Of a DNA stretch of 64,000 bases, positions 1 through 27,401 are shown piece by piece. The notes under the pieces are model-generated. The model ran no database searches, was not told the origin of the DNA, and worked only from the letters and a program-made list of their open reading frames with translations. The position numbers and the translations under genes are program-made. Source of the stretch: a virus; IMG/VR virus record IMGVR_UViG_3300032050_000010, one strand, 5' to 3'. The stretch's first letter is position 1; every line of letters begins with the position of its first letter.

Positions 1-4
1 CCTC

Positions 5-661
5 GTGGGTGGCATCGACACGCAGACTGTAACGCATCTCATCCGTCACCGTGCAGGTTCCTTCGCAGCGCAGTGCACCGGTGACCGTTGGCTTTCACAC
101 GAGCGCAGCCTTGTTCCTGGTTCCATCCAGAACAGCCCGGAGTTCTACGCTCGCTGGCAGGCACACGTCCAGGAGGCAAAGCAGCTCTACACGGACATGG
201 TCGACTCCAAGCAGATCAGTCTGATGGATGCTCGTCACGTCCTTCCTAAGTGCCTCGAGACGTTCTACTACATGCGTATGAACATCCGCGACGCATTTGG
301 TTTCATCAAGCAACGCCAGGACAAGCAGATCCAGCCTGAGGAGGACAACATGCTTGCAGCGCTCATGGCACGCGAGATCCTTCGCGTCTTCCCTGAGGCA
401 CACGTGGCAATCAACCTCCGTGAGCCTGCCTGGCACTACATCAAGACGTTCCGGAATGGCACTGGTACGAACCTCTACTGGCCCGATGAGGACAGCGAGA
501 AGCACCTCACCTACCACCCAGACGACACGATCTATCAGGCAACACGTGACGACATGAACGGCACAGGTGGTGGTGTCCCTCACTTCCGGAAGCTCTGGAA
601 CGAGACACTTGCTGAGATTGACACGATCGTCACCAACTACAAGAACACACGGGGCATTTAA
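5..661 (+). CDS. thyX: FAD-dependent thymidylate synthase (ThyX)-like protein, 5'-truncated by window edge
   Basis: THLIRHRAGSFAAQCTGDR resembles the ThyX RHRx7S motif (Cys in place of Ser); DARHVLP and MNIR..F...R match the ThyX C-terminal motifs. Confidence 0.75.
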   Translation: MGGIDTQTVTHLIRHRAGSFAAQCTGDRWLSHERSLVPGSIQNSPEFYARWQAHVQEAKQLYTDMVDSKQISLMDARHVLPKCLETFYYMRMNIRDAFGFIKQRQDKQIQPEEDNMLAALMAREILRVFPEAHVAINLREPAWHYIKTFRNGTGTNLYWPDEDSEKHLTYHPDDTIYQATRDDMNGTGGGVPHFRKLWNETLAEIDTIVTNYKNTRGI

Positions 662-5387: not shown

Positions 5388-5904
5388 TATAGCACTTTAC
5401 CTCGACCAGGACAATGAACTCCGCTTTAACGTGGCGATAGAGGGATCAAAGCCCGGCGCGCCCAAGTACCGCCTTGTTTTTGAGGGTAAGAACTTTTCTT
5501 ACACCTTCAGTGGCCAGCAGACGGCGCCTGGCGAGGTGTCCTTCACGATCCCGACCATGAAGAACCTCATCAAGGAGGGCGCTTACCACGCTGACCTCGA
5601 GGTAATGATCGATGACCGCTACTTTACACCCTTGTCGTTCGACGCGACGTTTGAGGAATCAGTTAAAGTTAGAGCTGAGGCAGTGACCCGAACCGTGCAG
5701 AAGAAGCCGGCCGTCACAGCTTCTATCGTCACAGCACGTGCTCCTGAGACAGCACGCCCCGTGCTTGAGTCAGCAACCCGCCCCGCCGCACCACGCCCAC
5801 AGCAGAAGGTCGCAGCTCGGGAGGATGACTTCATCGCCGAGGTTGATGGTCGCAAGATCACGGCTGATGACCTTCGTAGCTTGCTTAGATCCACCAGGAG
5901 GTAA
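5380..5904 (+). CDS. Hypothetical protein (Ig-like N-terminus, possibly virion)
   Basis: Overlapping ORF; C-terminal ITADDLRSLLR motif. Confidence 0.55.
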   Translation: MSDIALYLDQDNELRFNVAIEGSKPGAPKYRLVFEGKNFSYTFSGQQTAPGEVSFTIPTMKNLIKEGAYHADLEVMIDDRYFTPLSFDATFEESVKVRAEAVTRTVQKKPAVTASIVTARAPETARPVLESATRPAAPRPQQKVAAREDDFIAEVDGRKITADDLRSLLRSTRR

Positions 5905-5906
5905 AG

Positions 5907-6152
5907 ATGTTATCAGCATTATTCGCAGTCGTCGGTAGTTACGTTGCCGTCGCCGGTGTGCTCGTCGCCAAGCGTGCATTGAAGATCACTGATCTGCACG
6001 AAGAGTACACGTTCATCCGCTCACGTGAGCAGAAGTCACACATCAGAGCCTATGCGATTGTATTGAAGGGCGGCTTCAAGAGCGATCTGCTCTGGATCAA
6101 ACACCTTCCTAGCAAGGTCAAGACAGCACTCGCCTGGTTGAAGCCAGAGTAG
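5907..6152 (+). CDS. Small membrane protein
   Basis: N-terminal hydrophobic helix; SD AGGAGG. Confidence 0.55.
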   Translation: MLSALFAVVGSYVAVAGVLVAKRALKITDLHEEYTFIRSREQKSHIRAYAIVLKGGFKSDLLWIKHLPSKVKTALAWLKPE

Positions 6153-6156
6153 TTCC

Positions 6157-6858
6157 ATGAGCCGCGAGCTTCAGCGCGCGACGCTCTTCTTTAAGTACAT
6201 TAGAGAAGAGCACGCTCACCACATCGAGATGCTTGAGCGCGGAAAGCAGCAGCTACTTGAAGCCCTGAAGTACGTGAAGGTTGATCCAAATGCTCAGCCT
6301 CGCCAGCAAAATCAGCAACAGAGCACACCACCCCAGCAGCAGCCTGCTGAGCCAGAGAAACCTCCTGTGCCCGACGATGTTGCTGCAGACGTCAAGAAGC
6401 TCTACAAGAAGATCGTCCAGGAGACACATCCCGACAAGTTGGCACAGTCAGATCACGGTCAAAAAGAGCGCGAGAAGCGCGTCAAGCTGTACATGGACGC
6501 CGTCAAGGCATTTCAAGCATCAGACAGGGACAACCTTGTGGAGATCGCGCTTGACCTCGAACTTGACACAGGCCTCGAGGTTGAGAAGATCGTTGCATCC
6601 CTTCTGACACGCAGCAAGGCACTCGAGCTCCAGATCCAACAGGTCAAGGGTTCAGTCGAGTGGCTGTGGATGCACTCTGACGAAGCAAAACGCGTCGAGG
6701 TGATCAAGGAACTGTGCAGGCGAAATGGCTGGCTCTACGTCACAGATGAGCAGATCGTTGAGAGTGTCAGATACGCGTCCGGGATGCATCCAGGCACTAG
6801 AGAAGATGTCCGAGCAAGAGCACGCAAGATGATGCAGGAACGGCGCAGGATTACTTGA
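6157..6858 (+). CDS. J-domain (DnaJ-like) protein
   Basis: VKKLYKKIVQETHPDK = J-domain helix II plus HPD motif. Confidence 0.7.
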   Translation: MSRELQRATLFFKYIREEHAHHIEMLERGKQQLLEALKYVKVDPNAQPRQQNQQQSTPPQQQPAEPEKPPVPDDVAADVKKLYKKIVQETHPDKLAQSDHGQKEREKRVKLYMDAVKAFQASDRDNLVEIALDLELDTGLEVEKIVASLLTRSKALELQIQQVKGSVEWLWMHSDEAKRVEVIKELCRRNGWLYVTDEQIVESVRYASGMHPGTREDVRARARKMMQERRRIT

Positions 6859-6900
6859 ACACCGCACCGGGCGCATGTAGTATTGCTTAGAGGCAATAAC

Positions 6901-7344
6901 ATGAACAACGTCTATATCGCAAGTGGTTGGTTTTCTCCAGAGTGGCTCCAGGAAGTTGAGGACATTAAGACTGTCCTCGAGGATCTCAAACTCGATTACT
7001 TCTCTCCCAAGGATTATGCGATCGCTGAGGCAACTGCAAGCAACGACACGCAGAAGCAGATCTTTGATGGCAACGTCAAACACCTTGACATCTGTGATTG
7101 GATGATCTGCAACACCCGCAACAAGGACATGGGTTCAATCTGGGAGGCAGGCTATTTCTACGCTCGCAACAAGCCCATCGTCTACTTCTGCGCTGGCCTT
7201 CCACCCGGTGCCAAGTTCAATCTCATGCTGTCAGCAAGCGGCGTCGCTGTCTGCACTTCTCTCGATGATCTCCGTGAGTACCTGACACACTGCAAGCGTG
7301 AAGGTAAGCTGATCACTCGCAACTACAGCGGTTTGATCGAGTAA
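6901..7344 (+). CDS. Nucleoside 2-deoxyribosyltransferase / nucleotide N-glycosidase family
   Basis: VYIASGWF, FSP, IFDGNV..LD..D, DMGSIWEAGY, KPIV and NLML motifs. Confidence 0.8.
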   Translation: MNNVYIASGWFSPEWLQEVEDIKTVLEDLKLDYFSPKDYAIAEATASNDTQKQIFDGNVKHLDICDWMICNTRNKDMGSIWEAGYFYARNKPIVYFCAGLPPGAKFNLMLSASGVAVCTSLDDLREYLTHCKREGKLITRNYSGLIE

Positions 7345-7392
7345 TGAGGATATTGTGCGCTCCTGGTGGATAGTTATCTGCTAGGAGCGCAC

Positions 7393-8112
7393 ATGCGTAT
7401 GAATAGATTAGCCCTGCGTAAGATGATCCTCAGAGAGATGCATGATCACATGCAAGATGAGGATATGCCAGAGATTGAAGCTGAGGTCATCGACGATGAG
7501 GAAGATGAAGAGCACGAAGACGAAGATGTTCCAGAGGAAGATTACGACACCGACGTAGATGAAGAGGGCAACTTCGACTACGAGGATTCGAACGTCTACG
7601 AAGAAACTGGGATGATCAAGTCAAACCTCTACATGCTGTCCAAGAAGGCACATGAGCTCCATGACGAGATCGGAGATCGTGATGATCTTCCTGAGTGGGT
7701 GCAGGAGAAGATTGCAGTCGCATCCTACATGATGGACACAGTTCACGACTACCTCATGTACGAGATGGTCAAGGATGACCTCCACGAGAAGAAGGATGGG
7801 CACACCAAGAGCCGCAAGTACAAGGGCAAGGAGTACCGCGCGACACCTGCGATGGTAAGTGCAGTCAAGAAGGGTGCATCCTACAACCAGCTCGCAAAGC
7901 TCGCCAAGTGGGCTGATGAACCCGCTGCAGTCGTTCAGGCAGCAAAGATCGTGGCAAAGGGCAAGCCAATGTCCCGCGACGACGAGGAAGATGACCTCGA
8001 CGAGAACGACAGCTGGGAACCACTGCGTCAGTCAACCGGTATCATGTTCTTCGAGGACGAAGAGGGCACCGACTACCCAGCTCCCAAAGCGAAGGGTAAG
8101 AAGCGCGGTTGA
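7393..8112 (+). CDS. Acidic hypothetical, putative head-internal protein
   Basis: LRKMILREM N-terminal motif; LPEWVQEKIAVA domain seen in large-phage proteins. Confidence 0.55.
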   Translation: MRMNRLALRKMILREMHDHMQDEDMPEIEAEVIDDEEDEEHEDEDVPEEDYDTDVDEEGNFDYEDSNVYEETGMIKSNLYMLSKKAHELHDEIGDRDDLPEWVQEKIAVASYMMDTVHDYLMYEMVKDDLHEKKDGHTKSRKYKGKEYRATPAMVSAVKKGASYNQLAKLAKWADEPAAVVQAAKIVAKGKPMSRDDEEDDLDENDSWEPLRQSTGIMFFEDEEGTDYPAPKAKGKKRG

Positions 8113-8173: not shown

Positions 8174-9154
8174 ATGAAGATACTCATTACTGGTCACCGA
8201 GGTTTCATTGCATCTAACCTTCCACCTGCATTCGCTGATCTCGATCACGAAGTTGTCGATCCCAGCCAGCTCAGGCTGACACACAAGCTGCCGACAGGTG
8301 AGCACTGCGTCTATCGTAACAGTGAGGATGACTGGGCGCGCGAGATCAAGCGGCTCGGCGTCGATGTAGTTGTCCACAATGCAGCAGCAGTGGGCACCGA
8401 TGTCGTCGCGCTCAATCCTAGCGATGCGACGCTGTCCAACGTGACAGGAACCTACAACATCTGCCGCGCTGCTGAGAAAGCACGCGCAGCCGTCCTCTAC
8501 CTCGGAACGACAGTCATCTATAACACAGATCTGTATCAGGGCTCCTGGATCGCTGAGCGCTCCTCGCACGGCCCACAGACGCTCTACGGATCTCTGAAGC
8601 TGGCAGGTGAGTACATCGTCCGTGCACACAGCACGAAGTGGTCGATCGTCCGGCCCCTCTTCTGCTACGGCGGCGTGGGTGACAACAACTCACTGATCGC
8701 GAAGGGGTTCTTCGGCGCTGCACACGGCAAGGAGAAGATCGACATGTTCCTCGATCCCAAGAAGATCAAGGATTACATGCGCGTCGAGGATTTCTGCGAT
8801 GCGGTGGCAACTGTGGTCGATAAGGAGCTCTGGAACGATGACTGGAACGTCGCTGCGGAGACGCCTGAGAACACAGGCAGGATCGTCGAGATGATGAGTG
8901 AGATCTCGTGCAAGGATCTAAAGGGTGTGGTAAAATGGCACCCAGGAACCGACTACTTGGGTAACCATCGACTAAGCTCACAGAAGTTCAGGGATGCTTC
9001 TGGTTGGACACCAAAGTTCGACCTATATGGTGGCTTGGAAAAGTCGTGGAATGACATCCAGCGTAATCTGGGTTCCACGGATTATAATCCTCTGCGATAT
9101 CTGGAAGATGCCAAGAAGCGCGGCATCGACCTCACACAATTCTTCAACCGGTGA
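8174..9154 (+). CDS. NAD-dependent epimerase/dehydratase (extended SDR)
   Basis: ILITGHRGFIAS, HNAA, YGSLK (YxxxK), RPLFCYG. Confidence 0.85.
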   Translation: MKILITGHRGFIASNLPPAFADLDHEVVDPSQLRLTHKLPTGEHCVYRNSEDDWAREIKRLGVDVVVHNAAAVGTDVVALNPSDATLSNVTGTYNICRAAEKARAAVLYLGTTVIYNTDLYQGSWIAERSSHGPQTLYGSLKLAGEYIVRAHSTKWSIVRPLFCYGGVGDNNSLIAKGFFGAAHGKEKIDMFLDPKKIKDYMRVEDFCDAVATVVDKELWNDDWNVAAETPENTGRIVEMMSEISCKDLKGVVKWHPGTDYLGNHRLSSQKFRDASGWTPKFDLYGGLEKSWNDIQRNLGSTDYNPLRYLEDAKKRGIDLTQFFNR

Positions 9155-12100: not shown

Positions 12101-12724
12101 CACTCCAAGCTGAACAAGAGCTGCCTTGAGTCGCTGATCCTCACTGAGAGCCTGGGTTCGCTGCAGGAGTTCAAGGACGAGCGTCTCAACAATCACAATC
12201 AGCTCCACAAGATGATCATCGAGAACTATGACACGCTCCGCAAGGGTCGCACAGGAATGACCAAGACGGCCACCAAGAAGTGGGTAAAGGAGCACGGTAA
12301 AGAGCCCGTGATCATCGACCAGCTGATCGAGGCAACAGCGGATGTCCAAGATTGGAACCGCTACGAGAAGATCAAGAACTTCGTGGAGATCTTGACCACG
12401 GCGTCAGAAGAACTACTATTCCCACCCACCGTGATGGCAAAGATTGATCGTTCTAACGTCCCGTCTGCAATGCAGATCTCACCAGGATCGAAAGCAGTTG
12501 TCTGGTTCTGTGCGCAGGACTGGGTCAAGAAGCAGACAAAGAACGGCAAGACATTCTACACAGCATTCGCTGTTGACAATAACAGTGACACTGCAAGGAT
12601 CCGTGTGTGGGGCACATTTAAAGAAGAGCCCGAGCGATACACTATGTGGCTAGCTGAGGTAGAATATGATGCTAACTGGGGTATGTCAACCTCAGCAATG
12701 AAAATGCGAAAGATCGAGGTGTAA
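9161..12724 (+). CDS. dnaE: DNA polymerase III alpha subunit (family C)
   Basis: PHP motifs HAHSGFSTMDG, TDHG, DSHY; GRGSAPGSLV, PDIDSD, GRHAGG, KFDFLGL, YGFNKSH. Confidence 0.97.
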   Translation: MSIIRPPDRFVGLHAHSGFSTMDGLGYPAQHIDFVLKNGMDAWALTDHGNGSGLAHAQSHAKKMKKAGQKYRQLNGVEFYFVPSLKNWAEQYQDHKDAVAAARSEKKSKEATDIDADDEAGAGHIIENEDETKDASSLEVKDDEWKRRYHLVVIAKDKRGLSNLFTLVKRSFKEGYYRFPRIDFDMLKQHGEGLVVSTACIGGIMANRVLRGQAMHKSDAEIQHELKNLTDRFVDAVGLENFNLEIQFNKLQAQHDVNRHLIDLHKSTGVPLVATCDSHYPTPDKWKTRELYKKLAWMNAKEEPKPLPAFDELKCELYPKNAEQMWEEFNRHTDAYTFYQGSEELVRDAIERTHDIAWQQCEDVWVDTGAKLPVFATPEKTEFQQLVDLVKERMGEMGLHENPEYMARVKEELSDIKHLGHASYFLTMYKIFHRAKERTLLGPGRGSAPGSLVNYILGITQIDPLPFGLLWNRFLGRHRVSWPDIDSDAGDRDVLIDAARELFGDDAVIPVSNFNTLKLKSLVKDVAKFFNVPFDEVNAVTGPLQDEVMPHAKDDDQEKSVFVLKHDDCMKYSPAYNAFMTKYPEVEEHVNALFMENRSIGRHAGGVLVAEPKALAEGMPIIGVRGELQTPWTEGMNFRNLEDNGFLKFDFLGLTLLKDVENCIKRILIKQGVKNPTFSQIKDFFDEHLNCRTVKQDDQQVWKHVYHEGRFVGVFQFTADGARKFCLDAKPTNIGELAALTAIYRPGPLKANVHKLYVQAKRDASKIKYDHPVIQEVLGPTFGYVVFQEQFMMLAQKLAGFSPGEADQLRKTLVKKSLDTLGKKSSEKEAARKQFIDGALALHGVPEKVTGPLWDTIEAFSVYGFNKSHSVSYAIDSYYAGWLHTHYEKEWLATILQSETGNPKGLAKAIAEIKAIGYKFSQVDINYSGTEWTYSDEIQAFVPPLTSVKGLGDSAVSEIMENRPYRALDDLLFDAEGEWRHSKLNKSCLESLILTESLGSLQEFKDERLNNHNQLHKMIIENYDTLRKGRTGMTKTATKKWVKEHGKEPVIIDQLIEATADVQDWNRYEKIKNFVEILTTASEELLFPPTVMAKIDRSNVPSAMQISPGSKAVVWFCAQDWVKKQTKNGKTFYTAFAVDNNSDTARIRVWGTFKEEPERYTMWLAEVEYDANWGMSTSAMKMRKIEV

Positions 12725-12725
12725 T

Positions 12726-13634
12726 TTGAAGTTCAATCTAAAGACAGTTGTGCTAGAAGGTGTGGATTGCAGCGGCAAGACAACACTGTTTAGGAGCTTG
12801 CATCGTGCAACAGGCTTCAAGTGGAATATCCACGATCGAAGTGCTCTCTCGATGCTCTGCTATGCAGTCATGTACGGAAGAGATGTTGACCACTGGCGGC
12901 AGCTTCTCTTGGAAGAGATCAGCGATCTGAACAATGTGATCGTTGTGCTCATGCCCCCACTGGCCACCATCAAGGATCGCCTTGCTGAAAGAGGCGACGA
13001 GTTTCAAGATCAAGTGACGATTGAGAAGTTGTACACCATCTTTGAGGATGAGGTTTCACGTCTCAGCGCATACCCTAACGTCTTAGTTTGCGCGCAATCA
13101 AAAGCTTCTAGCGATGACATCGCACGGTGGCTGCTAAACTACGAGCGGCAGACATACAGTCGACTTGCAGAGATGACGCACGATCATGCGAGGATCAAGC
13201 TGTCTGGTGAAGCGCCTTTCCTAAAGATGACGTGGGAAGACACTGACTTCAAGACGCTCAGCACAAAGGCACTCTTCTACGAACCTGAGCTTGAGTACTA
13301 CGAAGCAACACGCAAGAAGCTTATTGAAAAGATCCAAGCAGAGCTGGCTGGACAGAATGAGTACGAGATGAAGCAGGATCTCAAGTCGCGACGGTTTGTC
13401 ATGACACAGGATAGTTGCATCTCCTATGCACACTTCATGTATCGTGGCGGCGTGCTTCACGCCAACATCGTGTGCAGATCTTCTGAGGTGTCGCGTATCT
13501 TCCCAAATGACATCCACTTCATCGGTCACATGGGTCAGACAGCCCGACGTGAGCTCGGCCTCACCGTTGAGACACCCGTGAGGTTTAATCTCACTCTCGA
13601 CTCAGCACATGTAATCTTTCAACCTACGCATTAA
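12726..13634 (+). CDS. dNMP kinase fused to thymidylate-synthase/dCMP-hydroxymethylase-fold domain
   Basis: N-terminal LEGVDCSGKTT and DRSALS (TMK-like); C-terminal SRR..DSC..RSSE..FPND..SAH. Confidence 0.7.
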   Translation: MKFNLKTVVLEGVDCSGKTTLFRSLHRATGFKWNIHDRSALSMLCYAVMYGRDVDHWRQLLLEEISDLNNVIVVLMPPLATIKDRLAERGDEFQDQVTIEKLYTIFEDEVSRLSAYPNVLVCAQSKASSDDIARWLLNYERQTYSRLAEMTHDHARIKLSGEAPFLKMTWEDTDFKTLSTKALFYEPELEYYEATRKKLIEKIQAELAGQNEYEMKQDLKSRRFVMTQDSCISYAHFMYRGGVLHANIVCRSSEVSRIFPNDIHFIGHMGQTARRELGLTVETPVRFNLTLDSAHVIFQPTH

Positions 13635-13651: not shown

Positions 13652-14644
13652 ATGAAGAGAGCATTAGTAACGGGCGGCGCCGGCTTCATTGGGTCAAATC
13701 TGACGCACGCGCTTGTCGATGATGGCTGGACAGTTGACGTAGTAGACGACATGTCGAACGGCCACCTCAACCTTCTTGATAATTTGAGCTATCGAGTTTT
13801 TCTGCCGGGCATGGCAGAAATCTATGAAGCACAGAAGCAGAGAACTTCGAAAGAAGTTTACGTGCATGAGTGTGACTTTGCACACCCAGTCATTCTAGAC
13901 AGAATTGCTCGGAAGCAATACGACGTCGTCTTCCACCAGGCAGCTGTTCCGCAAGTTTCCTACTCTGTCGAGCAGCCTACGAAGACGACAGACGTCAATC
14001 TTCTGAGAAGCATTGAGCTTCTCCATTCTTGCGTCGGCAACGTCGACAAGGTGGTTGTTGCATCATCATCAGCTGTCTATGGTAATACGGAGACACTGCC
14101 GACAACTGAAGAGACGCCACGTAACCCAAGATCTCCATACGGCCTCCAGAAGAGTGCTCTTGAGGATTTCTGTCGACTATTTGGTGAGCTCTACGATCTA
14201 GACACCGTCTGTCTGCGTTATTTCAACGTTTTTGGAGCAGGCCAGTACGGCGACTCACCTTATTCCACAGCAGTGTCTGCATGGTGTGATGCAATCAAAC
14301 ACGGACGAACACTTAGATCAGATGGTGACGGATCGCAGTCCCGTGACATGTGTCATGTTGACAATGTTGTAAGTGCCAATATTCTTGCTGCCAAGACGCC
14401 GAACCGCCTCATGGGCAAAGGGTACAACATCTGCTGCGGTGAGCGGACGACAAACCTTGAGATCCTCCAGCACCTCACAGGAGCATTTCCAACAGTTGAA
14501 GTTCGTCACGCTCCCTGGCGTCCAGGTGATGTTAAGCACACACTGGGTGACTGGTCAGCAGCAAATCGTGACTTCGGATACCAACCAATAGTTAAGTTCT
14601 GGGATGGGCTTGAGAAGACGCTCGCCTGGTGGGAGCTCAAGTAA
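13652..14644 (+). CDS. NAD-dependent epimerase (UDP-glucose/GlcNAc 4-epimerase-like)
   Basis: TGGAGFIGS, HQAA, ASSSAVYG, SPYGLQK, LRYFNVFG, RPGDVKH. Confidence 0.92.
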   Translation: MKRALVTGGAGFIGSNLTHALVDDGWTVDVVDDMSNGHLNLLDNLSYRVFLPGMAEIYEAQKQRTSKEVYVHECDFAHPVILDRIARKQYDVVFHQAAVPQVSYSVEQPTKTTDVNLLRSIELLHSCVGNVDKVVVASSSAVYGNTETLPTTEETPRNPRSPYGLQKSALEDFCRLFGELYDLDTVCLRYFNVFGAGQYGDSPYSTAVSAWCDAIKHGRTLRSDGDGSQSRDMCHVDNVVSANILAAKTPNRLMGKGYNICCGERTTNLEILQHLTGAFPTVEVRHAPWRPGDVKHTLGDWSAANRDFGYQPIVKFWDGLEKTLAWWELK

Positions 14645-16481: not shown

Positions 16482-16781
16482 ATGATGAAAAAGTTAACTC
16501 CACAAGATGTAAACAAACTGATCAGACGATCTCTGACCAAGGTTGTGCTTGAAAAGCTAACAGTGAAAGTGGGCAAAGAGGTCGTCGTCTCACCTGAGCT
16601 TAAGATCCGTCACGTTGGAAACAACAAAATTGAGGGCTCTAAGTATCTTTACACAATCACTGGGATTGACAACGTCGACGGTGTTCTCCAGTTGAAGATG
16701 AAGTACTACGACGACGACACTCCTGAGCCCCTTGAGACGATCGTGGCGCAAGATGAATTTGACCAATACGAGCTGGCATAA
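16482..16781 (+). CDS. Hypothetical protein
   Basis: ORF with N-terminal LTPQDVNKLIRRSL..VVLE. Confidence 0.55.
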   Translation: MMKKLTPQDVNKLIRRSLTKVVLEKLTVKVGKEVVVSPELKIRHVGNNKIEGSKYLYTITGIDNVDGVLQLKMKYYDDDTPEPLETIVAQDEFDQYELA

Positions 16782-17482
16782 TGAGTAAAGACATCACACA
16801 AATTGTCCGTCAGACACTTGGCTTAAGCGGTGAGACAGCCAAGAGCTCAAAGCGGCTCGACGAGGCGCTTGTTGCCGACCCTAAGCCTTTCAATCTTCCC
16901 ACAGAGTTCCAGAGTGCTGGCACAAAACGTGCTCACTTTGAGCTGTATGAAAACTACATCAAGGCCTTCAACCGCATCAGCGCAGAACTAGACAGCGCCG
17001 ATAGGACAGAAGTTAATTCCAACAACAGTCAGTTTCGCTCGTTGAAGATCGATGAAACGTACAACATGAACGCGATCTTCCTCCACGAGCTCTACTTTGC
17101 CAACATCAGTGATCTACACAGCAAGATCACAATGGACTCGCTCACTTACATGCGGCTCCAGCGTGACTTTGGCACGTTCGACAAGTGGCAGGAGGATTTC
17201 CTCGCCTGCTGTCAGGCATCCCGCTGCGGTTGGGCAGTCACATACTACAACCTCTTCACACAGACATACATGAATGCTGTCGTCGATCTACACAGCATTG
17301 AGATCCCGGTTGGGTGCTTTCCAGTGATTGTGATGGATGTGTGGCAGCACGCTTACTACAAGGATTATCTCCGGGATGTGAAGACATACAGCATCGCGAT
17401 GATGAAGGAGCTCAACTGGCGAGTCATCGAGGATCGCTTCAAGCAATCTGAGCGCGTCGCACAAGCAATGAGGTCACTATGA
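16781..17482 (+). CDS. Fe/Mn superoxide dismutase-like protein
   Basis: LHELYF, RDFGTFDKW, GWAV, DVWQHAYY. Confidence 0.8.
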   Translation: MSKDITQIVRQTLGLSGETAKSSKRLDEALVADPKPFNLPTEFQSAGTKRAHFELYENYIKAFNRISAELDSADRTEVNSNNSQFRSLKIDETYNMNAIFLHELYFANISDLHSKITMDSLTYMRLQRDFGTFDKWQEDFLACCQASRCGWAVTYYNLFTQTYMNAVVDLHSIEIPVGCFPVIVMDVWQHAYYKDYLRDVKTYSIAMMKELNWRVIEDRFKQSERVAQAMRSL

Positions 17483-25805: not shown

Positions 25806-27401
25806 ATGGAAGAGACAGACAAGTTAGTCGTCTTTGATGCAGCTGCTCGTGAGAAGCTCCTCGCGGGTGTCAATACTTTGGCCGATGCTGTCCGAGTGAC
25901 GATGGGCCCACGAGGTCGCAACGTCCTGATCGAGCAGCGCGGTCAACACCCGATCGTCACTAAGGACGGCGTCACTGTTGCGAAGTCGATCAATCTCCGC
26001 GACAAGTTGCAGAACTTGGGCGCCCAGATGATCAAGGAGGCAGCGTCCCGTTCGGCTGATGAAGCAGGAGATGGGACAACCACAGCAACTGTCCTCACGC
26101 AGGCGATCTTCAGCGAAGGCCTAAAGCTTGTTCTAGCAGGCTACCCATCGACTGACATCAAGGCGGGTATCGACCAAGCAGTCGAGCAGATCATCAGTAA
26201 GATTGACCAGATCGCTGTGCCTGCGGGATCACCAGAGGTACTGCGTCGTGTTGCAGTCATCTCAGCCAACGGCGAAGAGAGCCTGGGCGAGCTGATTGAG
26301 AATGCCATCAGGACAGTGGGTGAGGACGGTGTCGTCACAGTCGAGGAAGCAAAGGGTTACAACAGCAGCTTGACTGTCGTCGATGGCACTCGCATTGACC
26401 GCGGATACACGTCTCCCTACTTCGTCACCGATCAAGATCGGATGGTGTGTGAGATGGAGAAGCCTGCTGTGCTCCTCCTGAATAGGCGGATTGAGACGAT
26501 CAAGGACATTGTGGGCCTCCTCGAGAAGAGCCTGTCCAACAAGCGCCCACTCCTCATCATCGCAGACGACATCGACGGCGAAGCAATGCAGACACTCGTC
26601 CTTAACAGAGTGCGTGGTGCATTGAGCGTTTGTGCCATCAGAGCTCCTGGGGCTGGCGCAGGTCGATATGATCAGATGCAGGATCTTGCTGTCCTGCTCG
26701 GCACTCGTGTCTTCTCTGCTGCTGATGCTGAGGATCTGTCAAAGGTGCAACTCACAGAGTTAGGCACATGCAACAAGGCGCTGATCGGGCGCACCGAGAC
26801 AGTTCTAGTAGGCGCCAATGCTGACAGAGATCGGGTAGGTGAACGCCTCGACGAGATCCGGAAGCAGTATGCAGAGGCGATCGATGAGGGTGAGCGGCTG
26901 CAGACAAAGCAGCGTCTTGCCCGCCTATCAGGTGGCGTTGCCATCCTCCGTGTTGGCGGTGCCACCGAGGCGGAGCTTAAGGAACGTAAGGATCGTGCTG
27001 ACGACGCACTGCACGCTGTGCAAGCTGCCATGAAGGAGGGTGTCGTCCCCGGCGGTGGCACAACACTCGTCAGAGCAGCCAACGATGTCCCGCTTCCTGC
27101 TGGTGACTTCACACCTGTTCAGGCGGGCTTTCAGGTTGTCAAGACAGCATGCCGTGCACCGTTCAGGCAGATCGTCACAAATAGCGGTGGAACACCCGAG
27201 ATTGTGCTCAACCACTTGAACACGTTAAGCAGCACACACGTCTACGATGCCTTCCACGGCACTTATGGAGAGATGCTCGAGCTTGGGATCGTTGATCCTG
27301 CGCGGGTCGTCAAGTGTGCTCTGAGAAATGCCGCCTCTGCAGCAGGCATGATGCTCACTGTAGGATGCGCTCTCGTTGAGGATGAAGCGCCTGCAACGTG
27401 A
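25806..27401 (+). CDS. groEL: Chaperonin GroEL
   Basis: TMGPRGRNV, TKDGVTVAK, AGDGTTT, VGGATEAE, GVVPGGG, GIVDP. Confidence 0.96.
   Translation: MEETDKLVVFDAAAREKLLAGVNTLADAVRVTMGPRGRNVLIEQRGQHPIVTKDGVTVAKSINLRDKLQNLGAQMIKEAASRSADEAGDGTTTATVLTQAIFSEGLKLVLAGYPSTDIKAGIDQAVEQIISKIDQIAVPAGSPEVLRRVAVISANGEESLGELIENAIRTVGEDGVVTVEEAKGYNSSLTVVDGTRIDRGYTSPYFVTDQDRMVCEMEKPAVLLLNRRIETIKDIVGLLEKSLSNKRPLLIIADDIDGEAMQTLVLNRVRGALSVCAIRAPGAGAGRYDQMQDLAVLLGTRVFSAADAEDLSKVQLTELGTCNKALIGRTETVLVGANADRDRVGERLDEIRKQYAEAIDEGERLQTKQRLARLSGGVAILRVGGATEAELKERKDRADDALHAVQAAMKEGVVPGGGTTLVRAANDVPLPAGDFTPVQAGFQVVKTACRAPFRQIVTNSGGTPEIVLNHLNTLSSTHVYDAFHGTYGEMLELGIVDPARVVKCALRNAASAAGMMLTVGCALVEDEAPAT

What the first reader, a model, noticed from the sequence alone, without database searches (positions are those of the whole stretch)
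12726..13634. Kinase fused to a minimal TS-fold domain with a cytosine-specifying Asp
Seen: the C-terminal SRR...DSC..AHF.YR...LHANIVCRSSE...FPNDIHF...DSAH has the spacing of thymidylate-synthase-family motifs. Knowledge: the base-specificity residue is Asn in dUMP enzymes (ThyA N177) and Asp in dCMP enzymes (T4 gp42 D179, GFRND). Here it reads FPND. The domain is short and seems to lack much of the folate-binding region, and thymidylate supply already appears covered by the ThyX-like gene and TK. Inference: a dCMP-modifying enzyme coupled to a kinase for the modified nucleotide, or a degenerate nucleotide-binding domain.
Basis: partly seen in the sequence, partly recalled or inferred. Interest (0 to 1): 0.72.

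Follow-up and report, generated by a model that had tools for sequence, protein, structure and literature searches.

The report
Nucleotide kinase fused to mini thymidylate-synthase domain
An uncultured large phage encodes, directly after its DNA polymerase gene, one protein that joins a small nucleotide kinase to a stripped-down thymidylate-synthase-like domain with a cytosine-type active site, so this phage group probably puts a chemically altered cytosine into its DNA, although no chemistry has been measured.

Summary
ORF 12726-13634 (+, TTG start, 302 aa) has two domains. Residues 1-142 are a TMK/dNK-fold P-loop kinase. Residues 143-302 are a roughly 160-residue thymidylate-synthase (TS) fold. 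Profile and structure comparisons align SRR221-223, C231, R251-S252, D262 and H295 with E. coli ThyA R126/R127, C146, R166/S167, N177 and H207. D262 therefore occupies the position that is Asp in dCMP enzymes. The domain ends 7 residues after the His. The hydrophobic folate (PABA) position is polar and variable.

The family has at least 401 cluster representatives, nearly all from metagenomes. It has no match in 50,697 deposited phage genomes. The gene almost always lies directly after dnaE, among dCMP deaminase, TK, NTP pyrophosphatase/nucleotidase, NDT-like and NDP-sugar SDR genes. Split and stand-alone forms exist. A TS-like homodimer is predicted.

Most likely (about 0.55) the TS domain makes a C5-modified dCMP and the kinase phosphorylates it, which would be T4 gp42+gp1 logic in one chain. 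The substituent cannot be read: the residue at the ThyA-169 position flips among E, D and N within the family. It is E here, not the Asn signature of 5-hydroxy-dCMP synthases.

This scan has already found and followed up the same family on other genomes, with the same reading. I rate it a new variant of a known kind.

The parts
12716..12721 (+). Ribosome-binding site GAGGTG. It lies inside the last codons of dnaE (stop 12722-12724), 4 nt before the TTG start.
   Evidence: Read directly from the sequence. The homologues start at the same residue.
12726..13634 (+). Whole gene, 302 aa including the stop codon: a kinase fused to a mini-TS domain.
   Evidence: The family has 228 relatives, most of them about 300 aa.
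12726..13151 (+). N-terminal P-loop kinase domain (residues 1-142) of the TMK/dNK fold.
   Evidence: VIA Z 12.6, rmsd 2.7 A, 129 aligned to 2jaq (deoxyadenosine kinase). Z 12.3, rmsd 3.3 A, 139 aligned to 3kb2 (YorR). Z 12.3, rmsd 3.0 A, 136 aligned to S. aureus TMK. PDB profile hit to YorR, E 7e-10. phrog_761 'thymidylate kinase', E 1.6e-12.
12756..12785 (+). Walker A / TMK-type P-loop, EGVDCSGKTT (residues 11-20).
   Evidence: E11, G12, D14, G17 and K18 are invariant in 41 aligned relatives. Codons checked.
12834..12842 (+). DRS motif (residues 37-39), the counterpart of the TMK DRY and dNK ERS motifs.
   Evidence: D37 and R38 are invariant. The equivalence to DRY/ERS is my inference from knowledge of these families.
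12978..12998 (+). LID-like segment RLAERGD (residues 85-91) carrying invariant R85, R89, G90 and D91.
   Evidence: The same RGDE motif aligns with YorR.
13152..13631 (+). C-terminal minimal TS-fold domain (residues 143-302).
13287..13301 (+). ELEYY (residues 188-192). Possible counterpart of the TS 'E58-L-L-W-F' motif.
   Evidence: E188 and Y191 are invariant and Y192 nearly so. The equivalence is inference only: hhalign does not align the N-terminal half.
13341..13364 (+). ELAGQNEY (residues 206-213). Possible counterpart of the TS 'G..N..Y94-G' loop.
   Evidence: E206, G209 and N211 are invariant and Y213 nearly so. The equivalence is inference only.
13386..13394 (+). SRR (residues 221-223), aligned to ThyA R126/R127. 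In TS these arginines reach the partner subunit's nucleotide phosphate.
   Evidence: hhalign. R222 and R223 are invariant. Both lie in the predicted dimer interface.
13416..13418 (+). Cys231, aligned to the catalytic nucleophile (ThyA C146, T4 gp42 C148).
   Evidence: Invariant in the 41 aligned relatives.
13476..13487 (+). R251-S252-S253-E254, aligned to ThyA R166-S167-C168-D169.
   Evidence: R and S are invariant. The fourth residue is E in 80, D in 75 and N in 74 of 232 members.
13503..13511 (+). P260-N261-D262. D262 is aligned to ThyA N177 and T4 gp42 D179, the base-specificity residue.
   Evidence: D262 is invariant.
13608..13610 (+). His295, aligned to ThyA H207 and gp42 H216. The protein ends 7 residues later.

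Best explanation
The gene encodes a bifunctional, homodimeric enzyme of phage deoxynucleotide metabolism.

Proposed mechanism, all inferred:
- The C-terminal mini-TS domain binds dCMP. Asp262 reads and protonates the cytosine. R251/S252, together with R222/R223 from the partner subunit, hold the phosphate. His295 contacts the sugar.
- Cys231 attacks C6, and a substituent is installed at C5.
- The N-terminal TMK/dNK-type kinase domain phosphorylates the product so that it can reach the triphosphate pool. The DnaE replicase, encoded immediately upstream, then uses it.

This is the logic of T4 gp42 + gp1, or of RB69 gp48 + its dNMP kinase, compressed into one 302-residue chain.

Shown here: the fold, the residue equivalences, family-wide conservation, the gene neighbourhood, the split and stand-alone forms, and a predicted dimer. 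Inferred: dCMP as substrate, covalent catalysis, the order of the two steps, and incorporation into DNA.

The substituent cannot be read from sequence. I rate hydroxyl (flavin/O2, AfhB-like) and hydroxymethyl or methyl (folate) as about equally likely. Something else accounts for about a third.
For: 1. TS fold and active-site register.

2. The invariant residues of the C-terminal half across 41 relatives (identity to the first sequence falls to 24% over this domain) are almost exactly the TS nucleotide-binding and catalytic set: R222, R223, C231, S233, R251, S252, D262 and H295. 232 of 268 family sequences keep the full motif string.

3. Established knowledge: Asp at ThyA-177 gives dCMP specificity and protonates N3 (PMC13326640, section 24; PMC6400193). 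The T4 gp42 D179N and C148S mutants are inactive (PMC6400193).

4. The kinase part has an intact Walker A, DR motif and LID arginines. It is the only TMK-like signal in the 164-kb record.

5. Functional coupling. In locus L006 the kinase (159 aa) and the mini-TS (175 aa) are adjacent, overlapping genes. In L007 a stand-alone mini-TS lies 4 genes from a TMK-like gene.

6. Context resembles the T4 set. Within +/-10 kb of the 24 related loci compared, DnaE occurs in 22, dCMP deaminase in 21, TK in 20, an SDR in 19 and an NDT-like gene in 17. A dUTPase_2/NT5C gene occurs in 11. The window's own genome adds a MazG-like gene, the dUTPase_2::NT5C fusion and an RNR.

7. Predicted homodimer: ipSAE 0.89 in each of three runs, best of 3 controls 0.33. 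Partner pLDDT is at least 91 and the runs share at least 96% of contacts. In the tool's calibration the mark was reached by 20 of 30 proteins solved as pairs and 1 of 23 solved as single chains, and the counts hold only roughly because my own alignment was used. The interface is the TS-type beta-sheet (164-165, 225-252, 288-295) and includes R222/R223. The pass may partly reflect the model's memory of solved TS dimers.

8. Closest solved relatives by sequence profile are dCMP-modifying phage enzymes: AfhB 9iqc/9iqu at E 0.002 and T4 gp42 at E 0.05.
Against: - No activity, cofactor or modified base has been measured.
- Pfam's TS model does not hit the domain.
- The N-terminal half of the domain cannot be aligned to TS by sequence. 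The counterparts of E58 and Y94 are therefore unproven.
- The domain lacks the roughly 55 C-terminal residues of ThyA, including Y209.
- An 11-residue stretch before the Cys is deleted.
- At the L172 (Ec) / F174 (T4) PABA-contact position the residue is polar and variable, R257 here (PMC6400193). A folate site of the usual kind is unlikely.
- The Asn signature of flavin-type 5-hydroxy-dCMP synthases is absent in this protein, which has E254. That residue flips among E, D and N at least 31 times on the family tree, even between sister sequences. Neither known chemistry is specifically supported.
- No DNA glycosyltransferase or DHFR was found near the gene.
Confidence: 0.55

Rival explanations
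1. The TS-like domain is catalytic, but it does something other than classic C5 substitution of dCMP followed by NMP phosphorylation. Possibilities are Cys-assisted deamination or exchange, action on another cytosine nucleotide, or the reverse order. In the reverse order, the dNK-like kinase first makes dCMP from a deoxynucleoside supplied by the neighbouring NT5C, NDT and TK enzymes.
For: - The kinase fold matches deoxynucleoside kinases as well as it matches TMKs: Z 12.6 against 12.3, a tie.
- NT5C nucleotidase, NDT-like and TK genes are conserved neighbours.
- No usual cofactor site can be recognised.
- MilA (TS fold) works with the NDT-fold MilB in mildiomycin synthesis. This is my own knowledge; MilA is among the fold hits.
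Against: A zinc-type dCMP deaminase is already encoded 2.4 kb downstream. All characterised TS-fold enzymes substitute C5. The P-loop sequence EGxDxxGKTT is of the TMK type.
Confidence: 0.2
2. The TS-like domain is a non-catalytic module that binds dCMP or another nucleotide, dimerises, or regulates an ordinary phage dNMP kinase.
For: The domain is cut down to about 160 residues. It lacks recognisable cofactor-binding elements and falls below Pfam detection. Much of the predicted dimer interface lies in this domain.
Against: The nucleophile Cys, which pseudoenzymes usually lose, is invariant in the 41 aligned relatives and is kept with the rest of the motif in 232 of the 268 family sequences on hand. 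Stand-alone mini-TS genes without any kinase keep the same residues. The E/D/N choice at position 254 stays polar throughout.
Confidence: 0.15
3. It is simply this phage's thymidylate pathway enzyme: a dUMP-directed TS plus dTMP kinase. No modified base would be involved.
For: The architecture 'thymidylate kinase / thymidylate synthase' exists in viral proteins of about 437 aa in the ESM Atlas. Some sources name relatives of this protein 'thymidylate kinase'.
Against: The specificity residue is invariantly Asp, not Asn. A normal ThyX, a TK and a dCMP deaminase already cover dTMP supply. No DHFR was found in the available half of the genome.
Confidence: 0.05

Closest known systems
Flavin/O2-dependent 5-hydroxy-dCMP synthases of the TS superfamily (phage HY126 AfhB, PDB 9iqu/9iqc; RB69 gp48; DLP3 gp80), working with a separate dNMP kinase (PMC13326640)
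   Same: They are the best structural and sequence-profile matches. They share the Asp at the ThyA-177 position, the catalytic Cys, the RS and SRR motifs, and a short C-terminus after the His. They have the same kinase partnership and a phage origin.
   Different: Those enzymes are 217-240 aa, they pass Pfam PF00303, and they carry an invariant Asn at the ThyA-169 position (N186 in alignment A4). This protein has Glu there, its domain is about 160 aa, it is fused to the kinase, and hhalign aligns only its C-terminal half. Flavin binding is untested.
T4 gp42 dCMP hydroxymethylase + gp1 dNMP kinase + gp56 dCTPase
   Same: The active-site register is the same (hhalign E 8.6e-6). An acidic residue sits at the 169/171 position and Asp at 179. 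The pathway logic matches: an NTP pyrophosphatase, dCMP deaminase, TK and RNR are all encoded nearby.
   Different: gp42 is 246 aa with a folate site built from Y56, I81, W82 and F174 (PMC6400193). Here the F174-type position is polar, and the region that should hold W82 is shortened and cannot be aligned. In T4 the kinase is a separate protein of another family. No glucosyltransferase is found beside this gene.
Viral 'thymidylate kinase / thymidylate synthase' fusion proteins of about 437 aa (ESM Atlas cluster, PF00303 in 100% and PF02223 in 39% of 62 members)
   Same: The domain order is the same, kinase then TS, in one viral polypeptide (row 6).
   Different: Those proteins carry a full-length, Pfam-detectable TS domain. 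TM-score to this model is only 0.50 by the query and 0.37 by the match. I could not retrieve their sequences to compare specificity residues.
Bacillus subtilis SPbeta prophage YorR (PDB 2axp, 3kb2)
   Same: It is the closest solved relative of the kinase domain: profile E 7e-10, Z 12.3, rmsd 3.3 A, 139 aligned, 25% identity. It shares the EGPDC P-loop and the RGDE LID motif.
   Different: YorR is a single-domain protein of 173 aa whose substrate is uncharacterised.
Short archaeal thymidylate synthase (NCBIfam TIGR03283, thy_syn_methano, 201 positions)
   Same: It is a naturally short TS that ends soon after the His. Stand-alone mini-TS relatives hit its C-terminal third weakly, E 7e-5 to 0.08.
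   Different: All scores are far below its cut-off of 174 bits. This protein itself does not hit it.

Membership tests
Thymidylate synthase superfamily (ThyA / dCMP hydroxymethylase fold) | TS alpha/beta fold | tested here: met
   Foldseek E 3.8e-6 to 9iqu, followed by dozens of TS and MilA chains. VIA Z 11.8, rmsd 2.8 A, 148 aligned to 9iqu. VIA Z 11.2, rmsd 3.2 A, 144 aligned to 3v8h_B, spanning chain residues 1-263.
Thymidylate synthase superfamily (ThyA / dCMP hydroxymethylase fold) | Match to Pfam PF00303 above its gathering score | tested here: not met
   PF00303 gave no hit on the protein, even at E <= 1, and none in the whole 164-kb record. Only phrog_160 hits, at E 6e-4.
Thymidylate synthase superfamily (ThyA / dCMP hydroxymethylase fold) | Catalytic Cys (ThyA C146), with R166/S167 and the R126/R127 pair | tested here: met
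   hhalign register. C231, R251, S252, R222 and R223 are invariant.
Thymidylate synthase superfamily (ThyA / dCMP hydroxymethylase fold) | Conserved Glu58 and Tyr94 (invariant in my 8-member TS alignment) | tested here: inconclusive
   Invariant E188 (motif E-x-x-Y-Y) and nearly invariant Y213 (motif G-x-N-x-Y) are candidates. The N-terminal half is not aligned by hhalign and no residue-level structural alignment was available.
Thymidylate synthase superfamily (ThyA / dCMP hydroxymethylase fold) | Homodimer through the central beta-sheet, with arginines donated across the interface | tested here: met
   This is a prediction only. ipSAE is 0.89 against a best control of 0.33. The interface comprises residues 164-165, 222-252 and 288-295. 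The pass may reflect the model's memory of solved TS dimers.
Thymidylate synthase superfamily (ThyA / dCMP hydroxymethylase fold) | Folate site: C-terminal tail and hydrophobic PABA contacts (Ec L172/F176; T4 F174) | tested here: not met
   The protein ends 7 residues after H295. The position aligned to Ec L172 / T4 F174 is R257 here, and it is polar and variable in the family.
Thymidylate synthase superfamily (ThyA / dCMP hydroxymethylase fold) | Folate site: the I79/W80/W83 helix | tested here: inconclusive
   The segment from E188 to S221 is 33 residues, against about 67 in the AfhB-type alignment. It holds no conserved Trp. The register is unproven.
dCMP-specific branch (T4 gp42 type) | Asp at the ThyA-N177 position | tested here: met
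   D262 aligns with T4 D179 and Ec N177. It is invariant.
dCMP-specific branch (T4 gp42 type) | Acidic residue at the ThyA-L143 position (water activation for hydroxymethylation) | tested here: inconclusive
   Q228 is at Cys-3 and D229 at Cys-2. In the family, Cys-3 is Q, S, D, E or N, and Cys-2 is D in 155 of 232 members. An 11-residue deletion before the Cys makes the equivalence uncertain.
5-hydroxy-dCMP synthases (AfhB / RB69 gp48 type) | Asn at the ThyA-D169 position (the diagnostic of PMC13326640) | tested here: not met
   This protein has E254. The family splits E 80, D 75, N 74, with at least 31 changes on the tree. In true AfhB-type proteins the Asn is invariant.
5-hydroxy-dCMP synthases (AfhB / RB69 gp48 type) | Bound flavin, and O2 as the oxygen source | not testable with these tools
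   This needs UV-vis or HPLC of the purified protein and 18O2 labelling.
TMK / deoxynucleoside-kinase P-loop kinases | Fold, Walker A, DR(Y/S) motif and LID arginines | tested here: met
   Z 12.6 (2jaq), 12.3 (3kb2 YorR) and 12.3 (S. aureus TMK). E11, G12, D14, G17, K18, D37, R38, R85 and R89 are invariant.
TMK / deoxynucleoside-kinase P-loop kinases | Pfam PF02223 or PF01712 above the gathering score | tested here: not met
   Thymidylate_kin scores 14.8 bits and dNK 20 bits, each against a cut-off of 27. Only AAA_28 reaches its cut-off, at exactly 27.0 bits.

The most novel reading that the evidence does not exclude
The mini-TS domain is a new catalytic type within the TS superfamily. It would activate dCMP through Cys231 but use neither the classical folate site nor the AfhB-type flavin signature. 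With the conserved neighbours, it would feed a so far undescribed cytosine modification of a widespread clade of uncultured large DnaE phages, mostly aquatic. Those neighbours are a long ThyX paralogue, an NDT-like enzyme, NTP pyrophosphatase/nucleotidase, and two NDP-sugar SDRs bracketing dnaE. The modification might be sugar-linked.
Probability: 0.2. Interest if true: 0.9.

Novelty: new variant of a known kind. Interest (0 to 1): 0.62.

Why it matters
If the prediction holds, hundreds of uncultured large phages replace or modify cytosine through an enzyme that standard annotation misses. The sources name it 'hypothetical protein' or 'thymidylate kinase'. These phages come from marine and other metagenomes.

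Three consequences would follow:
- The census of phages with modified DNA would grow. That matters for restriction and CRISPR evasion and for sequencing bias in viromes.
- The family would give the smallest known working TS fold, about 160 residues, which is a useful case for how the fold binds its second substrate.
- It would provide a natural one-chain 'modify then phosphorylate' module that could be used to make modified dNTPs.

The free interchange of E, D and N at the ThyA-169 position also warns against carrying the published D169N diagnostic for 5-hydroxy-dCMP synthases over to distant branches.

Tried and rejected
- tblastn of the whole protein (E <= 1e-5) and of the C-terminal domain (E <= 1) against 50,697 phage records. 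The first found nothing. The second found only a 41-residue weak hit to an annotated TS of Brevibacterium phage LuckyBarnes. A stand-alone relative, P0252, hit only annotated TS genes of Bacteroides phages, at E 4e-3. No cultured carrier could be named.
- The search for fused forms of 530-2000 aa found none. The tool itself calls this weak evidence.
- NCBIfam gave no useful hit for the protein.
- Three hhalign runs tried to extend the alignment into the N-terminal half of the domain: against a mixed TS alignment, against 25 AfhB-type proteins, and against single sequences. All stopped at about residue 215. E58, Y94 and W80 could not be mapped.
- I tried using the residue at ThyA-169 to split the family into functional subtypes. 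This was rejected, because E, D and N interchange between sister sequences in the same gene context.
- I looked for a DNA glycosyltransferase or other post-replicative modifier among the unknown neighbours, using Pfam and PHROGs. None was found. The only GT1 hit in the record lies about 92 kb away, at the start of the record.
- No DHFR was found in the record. The record is only about 49% complete, so its absence proves nothing.
- Literature searches and text look-ups in two of the papers they returned found no description of a kinase fused to a minimal TS domain.
Full report
**What is there**

The ORF at 12726-13634 (+) encodes 302 residues. It starts at a TTG, 4 nt after a GAGGTG that overlaps the last codons of the 1187-aa DnaE gene, whose stop is at 12722-12724. 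Relatives begin at the same residue.

**Two domains**

An AlphaFold2 model built on 41 relatives is confident: pLDDT 94.2 and pTM 0.89.

Residues 1-142 are a TMK/deoxynucleoside-kinase-fold P-loop kinase.
- VIA gives Z 12.6, rmsd 2.7 A, 129 aligned to 2jaq. It gives Z 12.3, rmsd 3.3 A, 139 aligned to YorR 3kb2, and Z 12.3, rmsd 3.0 A, 136 aligned to S. aureus TMK. These are ties.
- The closest solved relative by sequence is the SPbeta prophage protein YorR, at profile E 7e-10.
- The Walker A (EGVDCSGKTT), a DRS motif and an R-x3-RGD LID segment are invariant in the family.

Residues 143-302 have the thymidylate-synthase fold.
- Foldseek ranks the phage HY126 dCMP hydroxylase AfhB first (9iqu, E 3.8e-6). 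Dozens of ThyA, DHFR-TS and MilA chains follow.
- VIA gives Z 11.8, rmsd 2.8 A, 148 aligned to 9iqu. It gives Z 11.2, rmsd 3.2 A, 144 aligned to a ThyA (3v8h_B), covering model residues 145-301 against chain residues 1-263. It gives Z 11.1, rmsd 3.4 A, 148 aligned to MilA.
- About 145 of the domain's 160 residues therefore lie on a TS core whose normal length is about 264 residues.

**Residue equivalences**

Four independent sequence comparisons give one register:
- a PDB profile search;
- hhalign of the C-terminal family profile against T4 gp42 (E 8.6e-6) and against E. coli ThyA (E 1.8e-4);
- hhalign against an 8-member alignment of diverse TS-superfamily proteins (probability 96.5%, E 9.9e-10);
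- hhalign against 25 AfhB-type proteins (E 1.6e-8).

In that register:

| This protein | E. coli ThyA | T4 gp42 |
|---|---|---|
| S221-R222-R223 | D-S-R126-R127 | |
| C231 | C146 | C148 |
| R251-S252 | R166-S167 | |
| E254 | D169 | |
| P260 | P175 | |
| D262 | N177 | D179 |
| H295 | H207 | |

Established work shows that Asp at this site gives dCMP specificity and protonates N3, and that C148S and D179N inactivate T4 gp42 (PMC13326640, section 24; PMC6400193).

**What is missing**

- Pfam's TS model does not see the domain.
- The protein ends 7 residues after H295. The last ~55 residues of ThyA, including Y209 and the tail that closes over folate, are absent.
- Eleven residues between the SRR strand and the Cys are deleted.
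- The position aligned to Ec L172 / T4 F174, a PABA contact in the gp42-THF structure (PMC6400193), is R257 here, and it is polar and variable in relatives.
- The N-terminal half (143-214) cannot be aligned to TS by sequence. It carries invariant E188 and Y191 in an E-x-x-Y-Y motif, and E206, G209 and N211 with nearly invariant Y213 (a G-x-N-x-Y motif). I suspect these correspond to the TS E58-L-L-W-F and G..N..Y94 motifs, but that is inference.
- The stretch between them is about half as long as in AfhB-type proteins and has no conserved Trp. The W80/W83 folate helix is therefore probably gone.

'Lacks much of the folate-binding region' is thus shown in part and inferred in part.

**The family**

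- A word-indexed search found 228 relatives, nearly all 295-316 aa and full length.
- An exhaustive profile search with the C-terminal domain found 401 cluster representatives at E <= 1e-3, and 155 at E <= 1e-10.
- Most are kinase fusions. A deep branch consists of stand-alone proteins of 160-200 aa with the same motifs.
- ESM Atlas structural neighbours are unnamed clusters that are 100% viral. The Atlas also holds a viral cluster of about 437 aa, 'thymidylate kinase / thymidylate synthase', with a full-length TS domain.
- Nothing comparable is present in 50,697 deposited phage genomes, so no cultured carrier is known to me.
- The window belongs to an IMG/VR record of 163,948 bp that is estimated to be 49% complete.

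**Conservation pattern**

In the 41-sequence alignment, the invariant residues of the C-terminal half are R222, R223, C231, S233, R251, S252, D262 and H295. That is the nucleotide-binding and catalytic set of TS. 232 of the 268 family sequences on hand keep the whole motif string. Retention of the nucleophile in the fused forms and in the stand-alone forms argues for catalysis rather than mere binding.

**The ThyA-169 position**

PMC13326640 proposes Asn at this position as diagnostic of flavin-dependent 5-hydroxy-dCMP synthases. In my alignment of 25 such proteins the Asn is indeed invariant. In the mini-TS family the position is E in 80, D in 75 and N in 74 of 232 sequences.

On a maximum-likelihood tree of 188 members the label changes at least 31 times. 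It differs between close sisters, for example P0109 (N) against P0114 (D), and P0065 (E) against P0066 (N). Loci with E, D or N share the same gene context. The window's clade is mostly E. The signature therefore cannot be carried over, and it decides neither for nor against hydroxylation here.

**Gene context**

In 24 related loci I compared genes within +/-10 kb of the mini-TS gene.

| Neighbour | Loci (of 24) |
|---|---|
| DnaE | 22 |
| dCMP deaminase | 21 |
| TK | 20 |
| extended SDR | 19 |
| SOD-like protein | 19 |
| NDT-like protein | 17 |
| DHH phosphoesterase | 15 |
| long ThyX paralogue | 12 |
| dUTPase_2/NT5C | 11 |

DnaE lies directly upstream in the loci whose gene tables I read. 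The flank does not reach the ThyX paralogue in the window's closest relatives, so that count is a lower bound.

Upstream of the window, the same genome encodes:
- an RNR, a normal ThyX, and HhH-GPD and Nei glycosylases;
- a MazG-like pyrophosphatase;
- a dUTPase_2::NT5C fusion;
- the 316-aa ThyX paralogue.

The set NTP pyrophosphatase + dCMP-type TS fold + dNMP kinase + dCMP deaminase + TK + RNR parallels the T4 hydroxymethyl-dC precursor pathway.

In two unrelated phages the parts are separate but still linked.
- L006 is a PolA phage. It has a 159-aa kinase gene overlapping a 175-aa mini-TS gene. It also has a dUTPase_2, a 222-aa PF00303 protein with E169/D177, a 349-aa ThyX and a dCMP deaminase.
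- L007 is a UDG::PolB phage. It has the gene order TMK-like, NDT-like, HD nucleotidase, ThyX, mini-TS.

**Quaternary structure**

Two copies of the full-length protein are predicted to pair.
- ipSAE is 0.89 in each of three runs, and the best of three controls is 0.33. Partner pLDDT is at least 91, and the runs share at least 96% of their contacts.
- In the tool's calibration the mark was reached by 20 of 30 proteins solved as pairs and by 1 of 23 solved as single chains. The counts hold only roughly, because my own alignment was used.
- The confident contacts are strand-to-strand across residues 164-165, 225-252 and 288-295, and they include R222/R223. That is the arrangement of TS dimers, in which these arginines reach the other subunit's nucleotide. 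The kinase domains also touch.
- Because TS dimers are well represented among solved structures, this pass shows likeness and not proof.

**Interpretation**

The best reading (confidence about 0.55) is a bifunctional enzyme. It makes a C5-modified dCMP through Cys231 and Asp262 and then phosphorylates it. This is the gp42+gp1 or gp48+dNMPK scheme in one chain, coupled to the replicase gene.

I cannot name the substituent.
- For a flavin/O2 hydroxylase: the best structural and profile matches are AfhB, the C-terminus is short, the PABA contacts are lost, no DHFR was found, and a SOD-like neighbour is conserved.
- For a folate-dependent hydroxymethylase or methylase: residue 254 is acidic as in TS and gp42, the residues just before the Cys are polar or acidic, and the ThyX genes indicate that CH2-THF is used.
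- Each set is weak.

The rivals are:
- a different reaction or a reversed order of steps (0.2);
- a non-catalytic binding or dimerisation domain (0.15);
- a plain dTMP pathway enzyme (0.05).

**Novelty**

The kind is known: a TS-superfamily enzyme plus a kinase that make a modified pyrimidine nucleotide for phage DNA. The new elements are the roughly 160-residue core, the obligatory fusion to a YorR-like mini-kinase, the position behind dnaE, and the unclear cofactor. I found no description in the papers library.

This scan has already flagged the same family in several other genomes, with follow-up agents reaching the same reading. I reached mine independently before reading those notes. This report adds:
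- the E/D/N tree result;
- the split-gene loci;
- the dimer prediction;
- the synteny counts.

Noticed in passing
window 1-661 (+), continuing about 290 nt upstream of the window (L001:17422-17901): A second ThyX paralogue of 316 aa. Pfam Thy1 gives E 2.2e-16 on the in-window part. It is additional to a normal 222-aa ThyX at L001:13989-14654. A long Thy1 gene of 290-349 aa also accompanies the mini-TS in distant loci L004-L007, and in L007 the two genes overlap by 4 nt. Its role is unexplained.
   Followed up: partly
L001:16108-17435 (genome 78107-79434, just upstream of the window): A MazG-like NTP pyrophosphatase of 126 aa (phrog_12184, E 6e-14). It is followed by a fusion of a dUTPase_2-type all-alpha pyrophosphatase with an NT5C deoxynucleotidase (316 aa). 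Together they could take a dNTP down to the nucleoside. In L004 the two domains are separate genes.
   Followed up: partly
window 8174-9154 and 13652-14644 (+): Two extended-SDR NDP-sugar enzymes bracket dnaE and the fusion gene. The first is dTDP-glucose dehydratase/RmlD-like. The second is like the GalE/TviC 4-epimerases. Both score far below the equivalog cut-offs. At least one SDR is present in 19 of 24 related loci. No glycosyltransferase lies beside them.
   Followed up: partly
window 6883-7344 (+): A nucleoside 2-deoxyribosyltransferase-family protein (Pfam E 1.3e-16; phrog_7995). It is conserved in 17 of 24 loci, including a locus with a stand-alone mini-TS. The family also includes dNMP and CMP N-glycosidases such as MilB, the partner of the TS-fold MilA. 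That last point is my own knowledge and was not tested.
   Followed up: no
window 7366-8112 (+): This 248-aa ORF has no Pfam or PHROG hit. The HMM built from it also finds one ORF in L004, which I take to be the syntenic gene at 5514-6341 that carries Methyltransf_23/31 domains, although I did not check the coordinates of the hit. It may therefore be a divergent SAM methyltransferase between SDR1 and dnaE.
   Followed up: no
L001:14654-15884 (upstream of the window): Adjacent HhH-GPD (143 aa) and Fpg/Nei (269 aa) DNA glycosylase genes lie in the phage replication module. They are conserved in L004, L005 and L014. Cellular enzymes of these classes remove oxidised pyrimidines. That is curious if the phage carries an oxidised or modified cytosine.
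   Followed up: no
window 16781-17482 (+): A SOD-like protein that matches only the C-terminal Fe/Mn-SOD domain (E 3.7e-15). It is conserved in 19 of 24 loci, next to the nucleotide-metabolism genes.
   Followed up: no
L006:3485-8980: An unrelated PolA phage carries three TS-type genes in a row. The first is a 222-aa PF00303 protein with RSLEV...GND, that is Glu at position 169 and Asp at 177. The second is a 349-aa ThyX. The third is a split kinase (159 aa) plus mini-TS (175 aa), followed by dCMP deaminase.
   Followed up: partly
L007:7760-10636: A UDG::family-B DNA polymerase fusion of 958 aa lies immediately after a stand-alone mini-TS gene.
   Followed up: no
window 25806-27401 (+) and L001:13192-13794: The phage encodes a GroEL-type chaperonin (Cpn60_TCP1, E 3.7e-71) and a ClpP protease (E 2.8e-33).
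   Followed up: no
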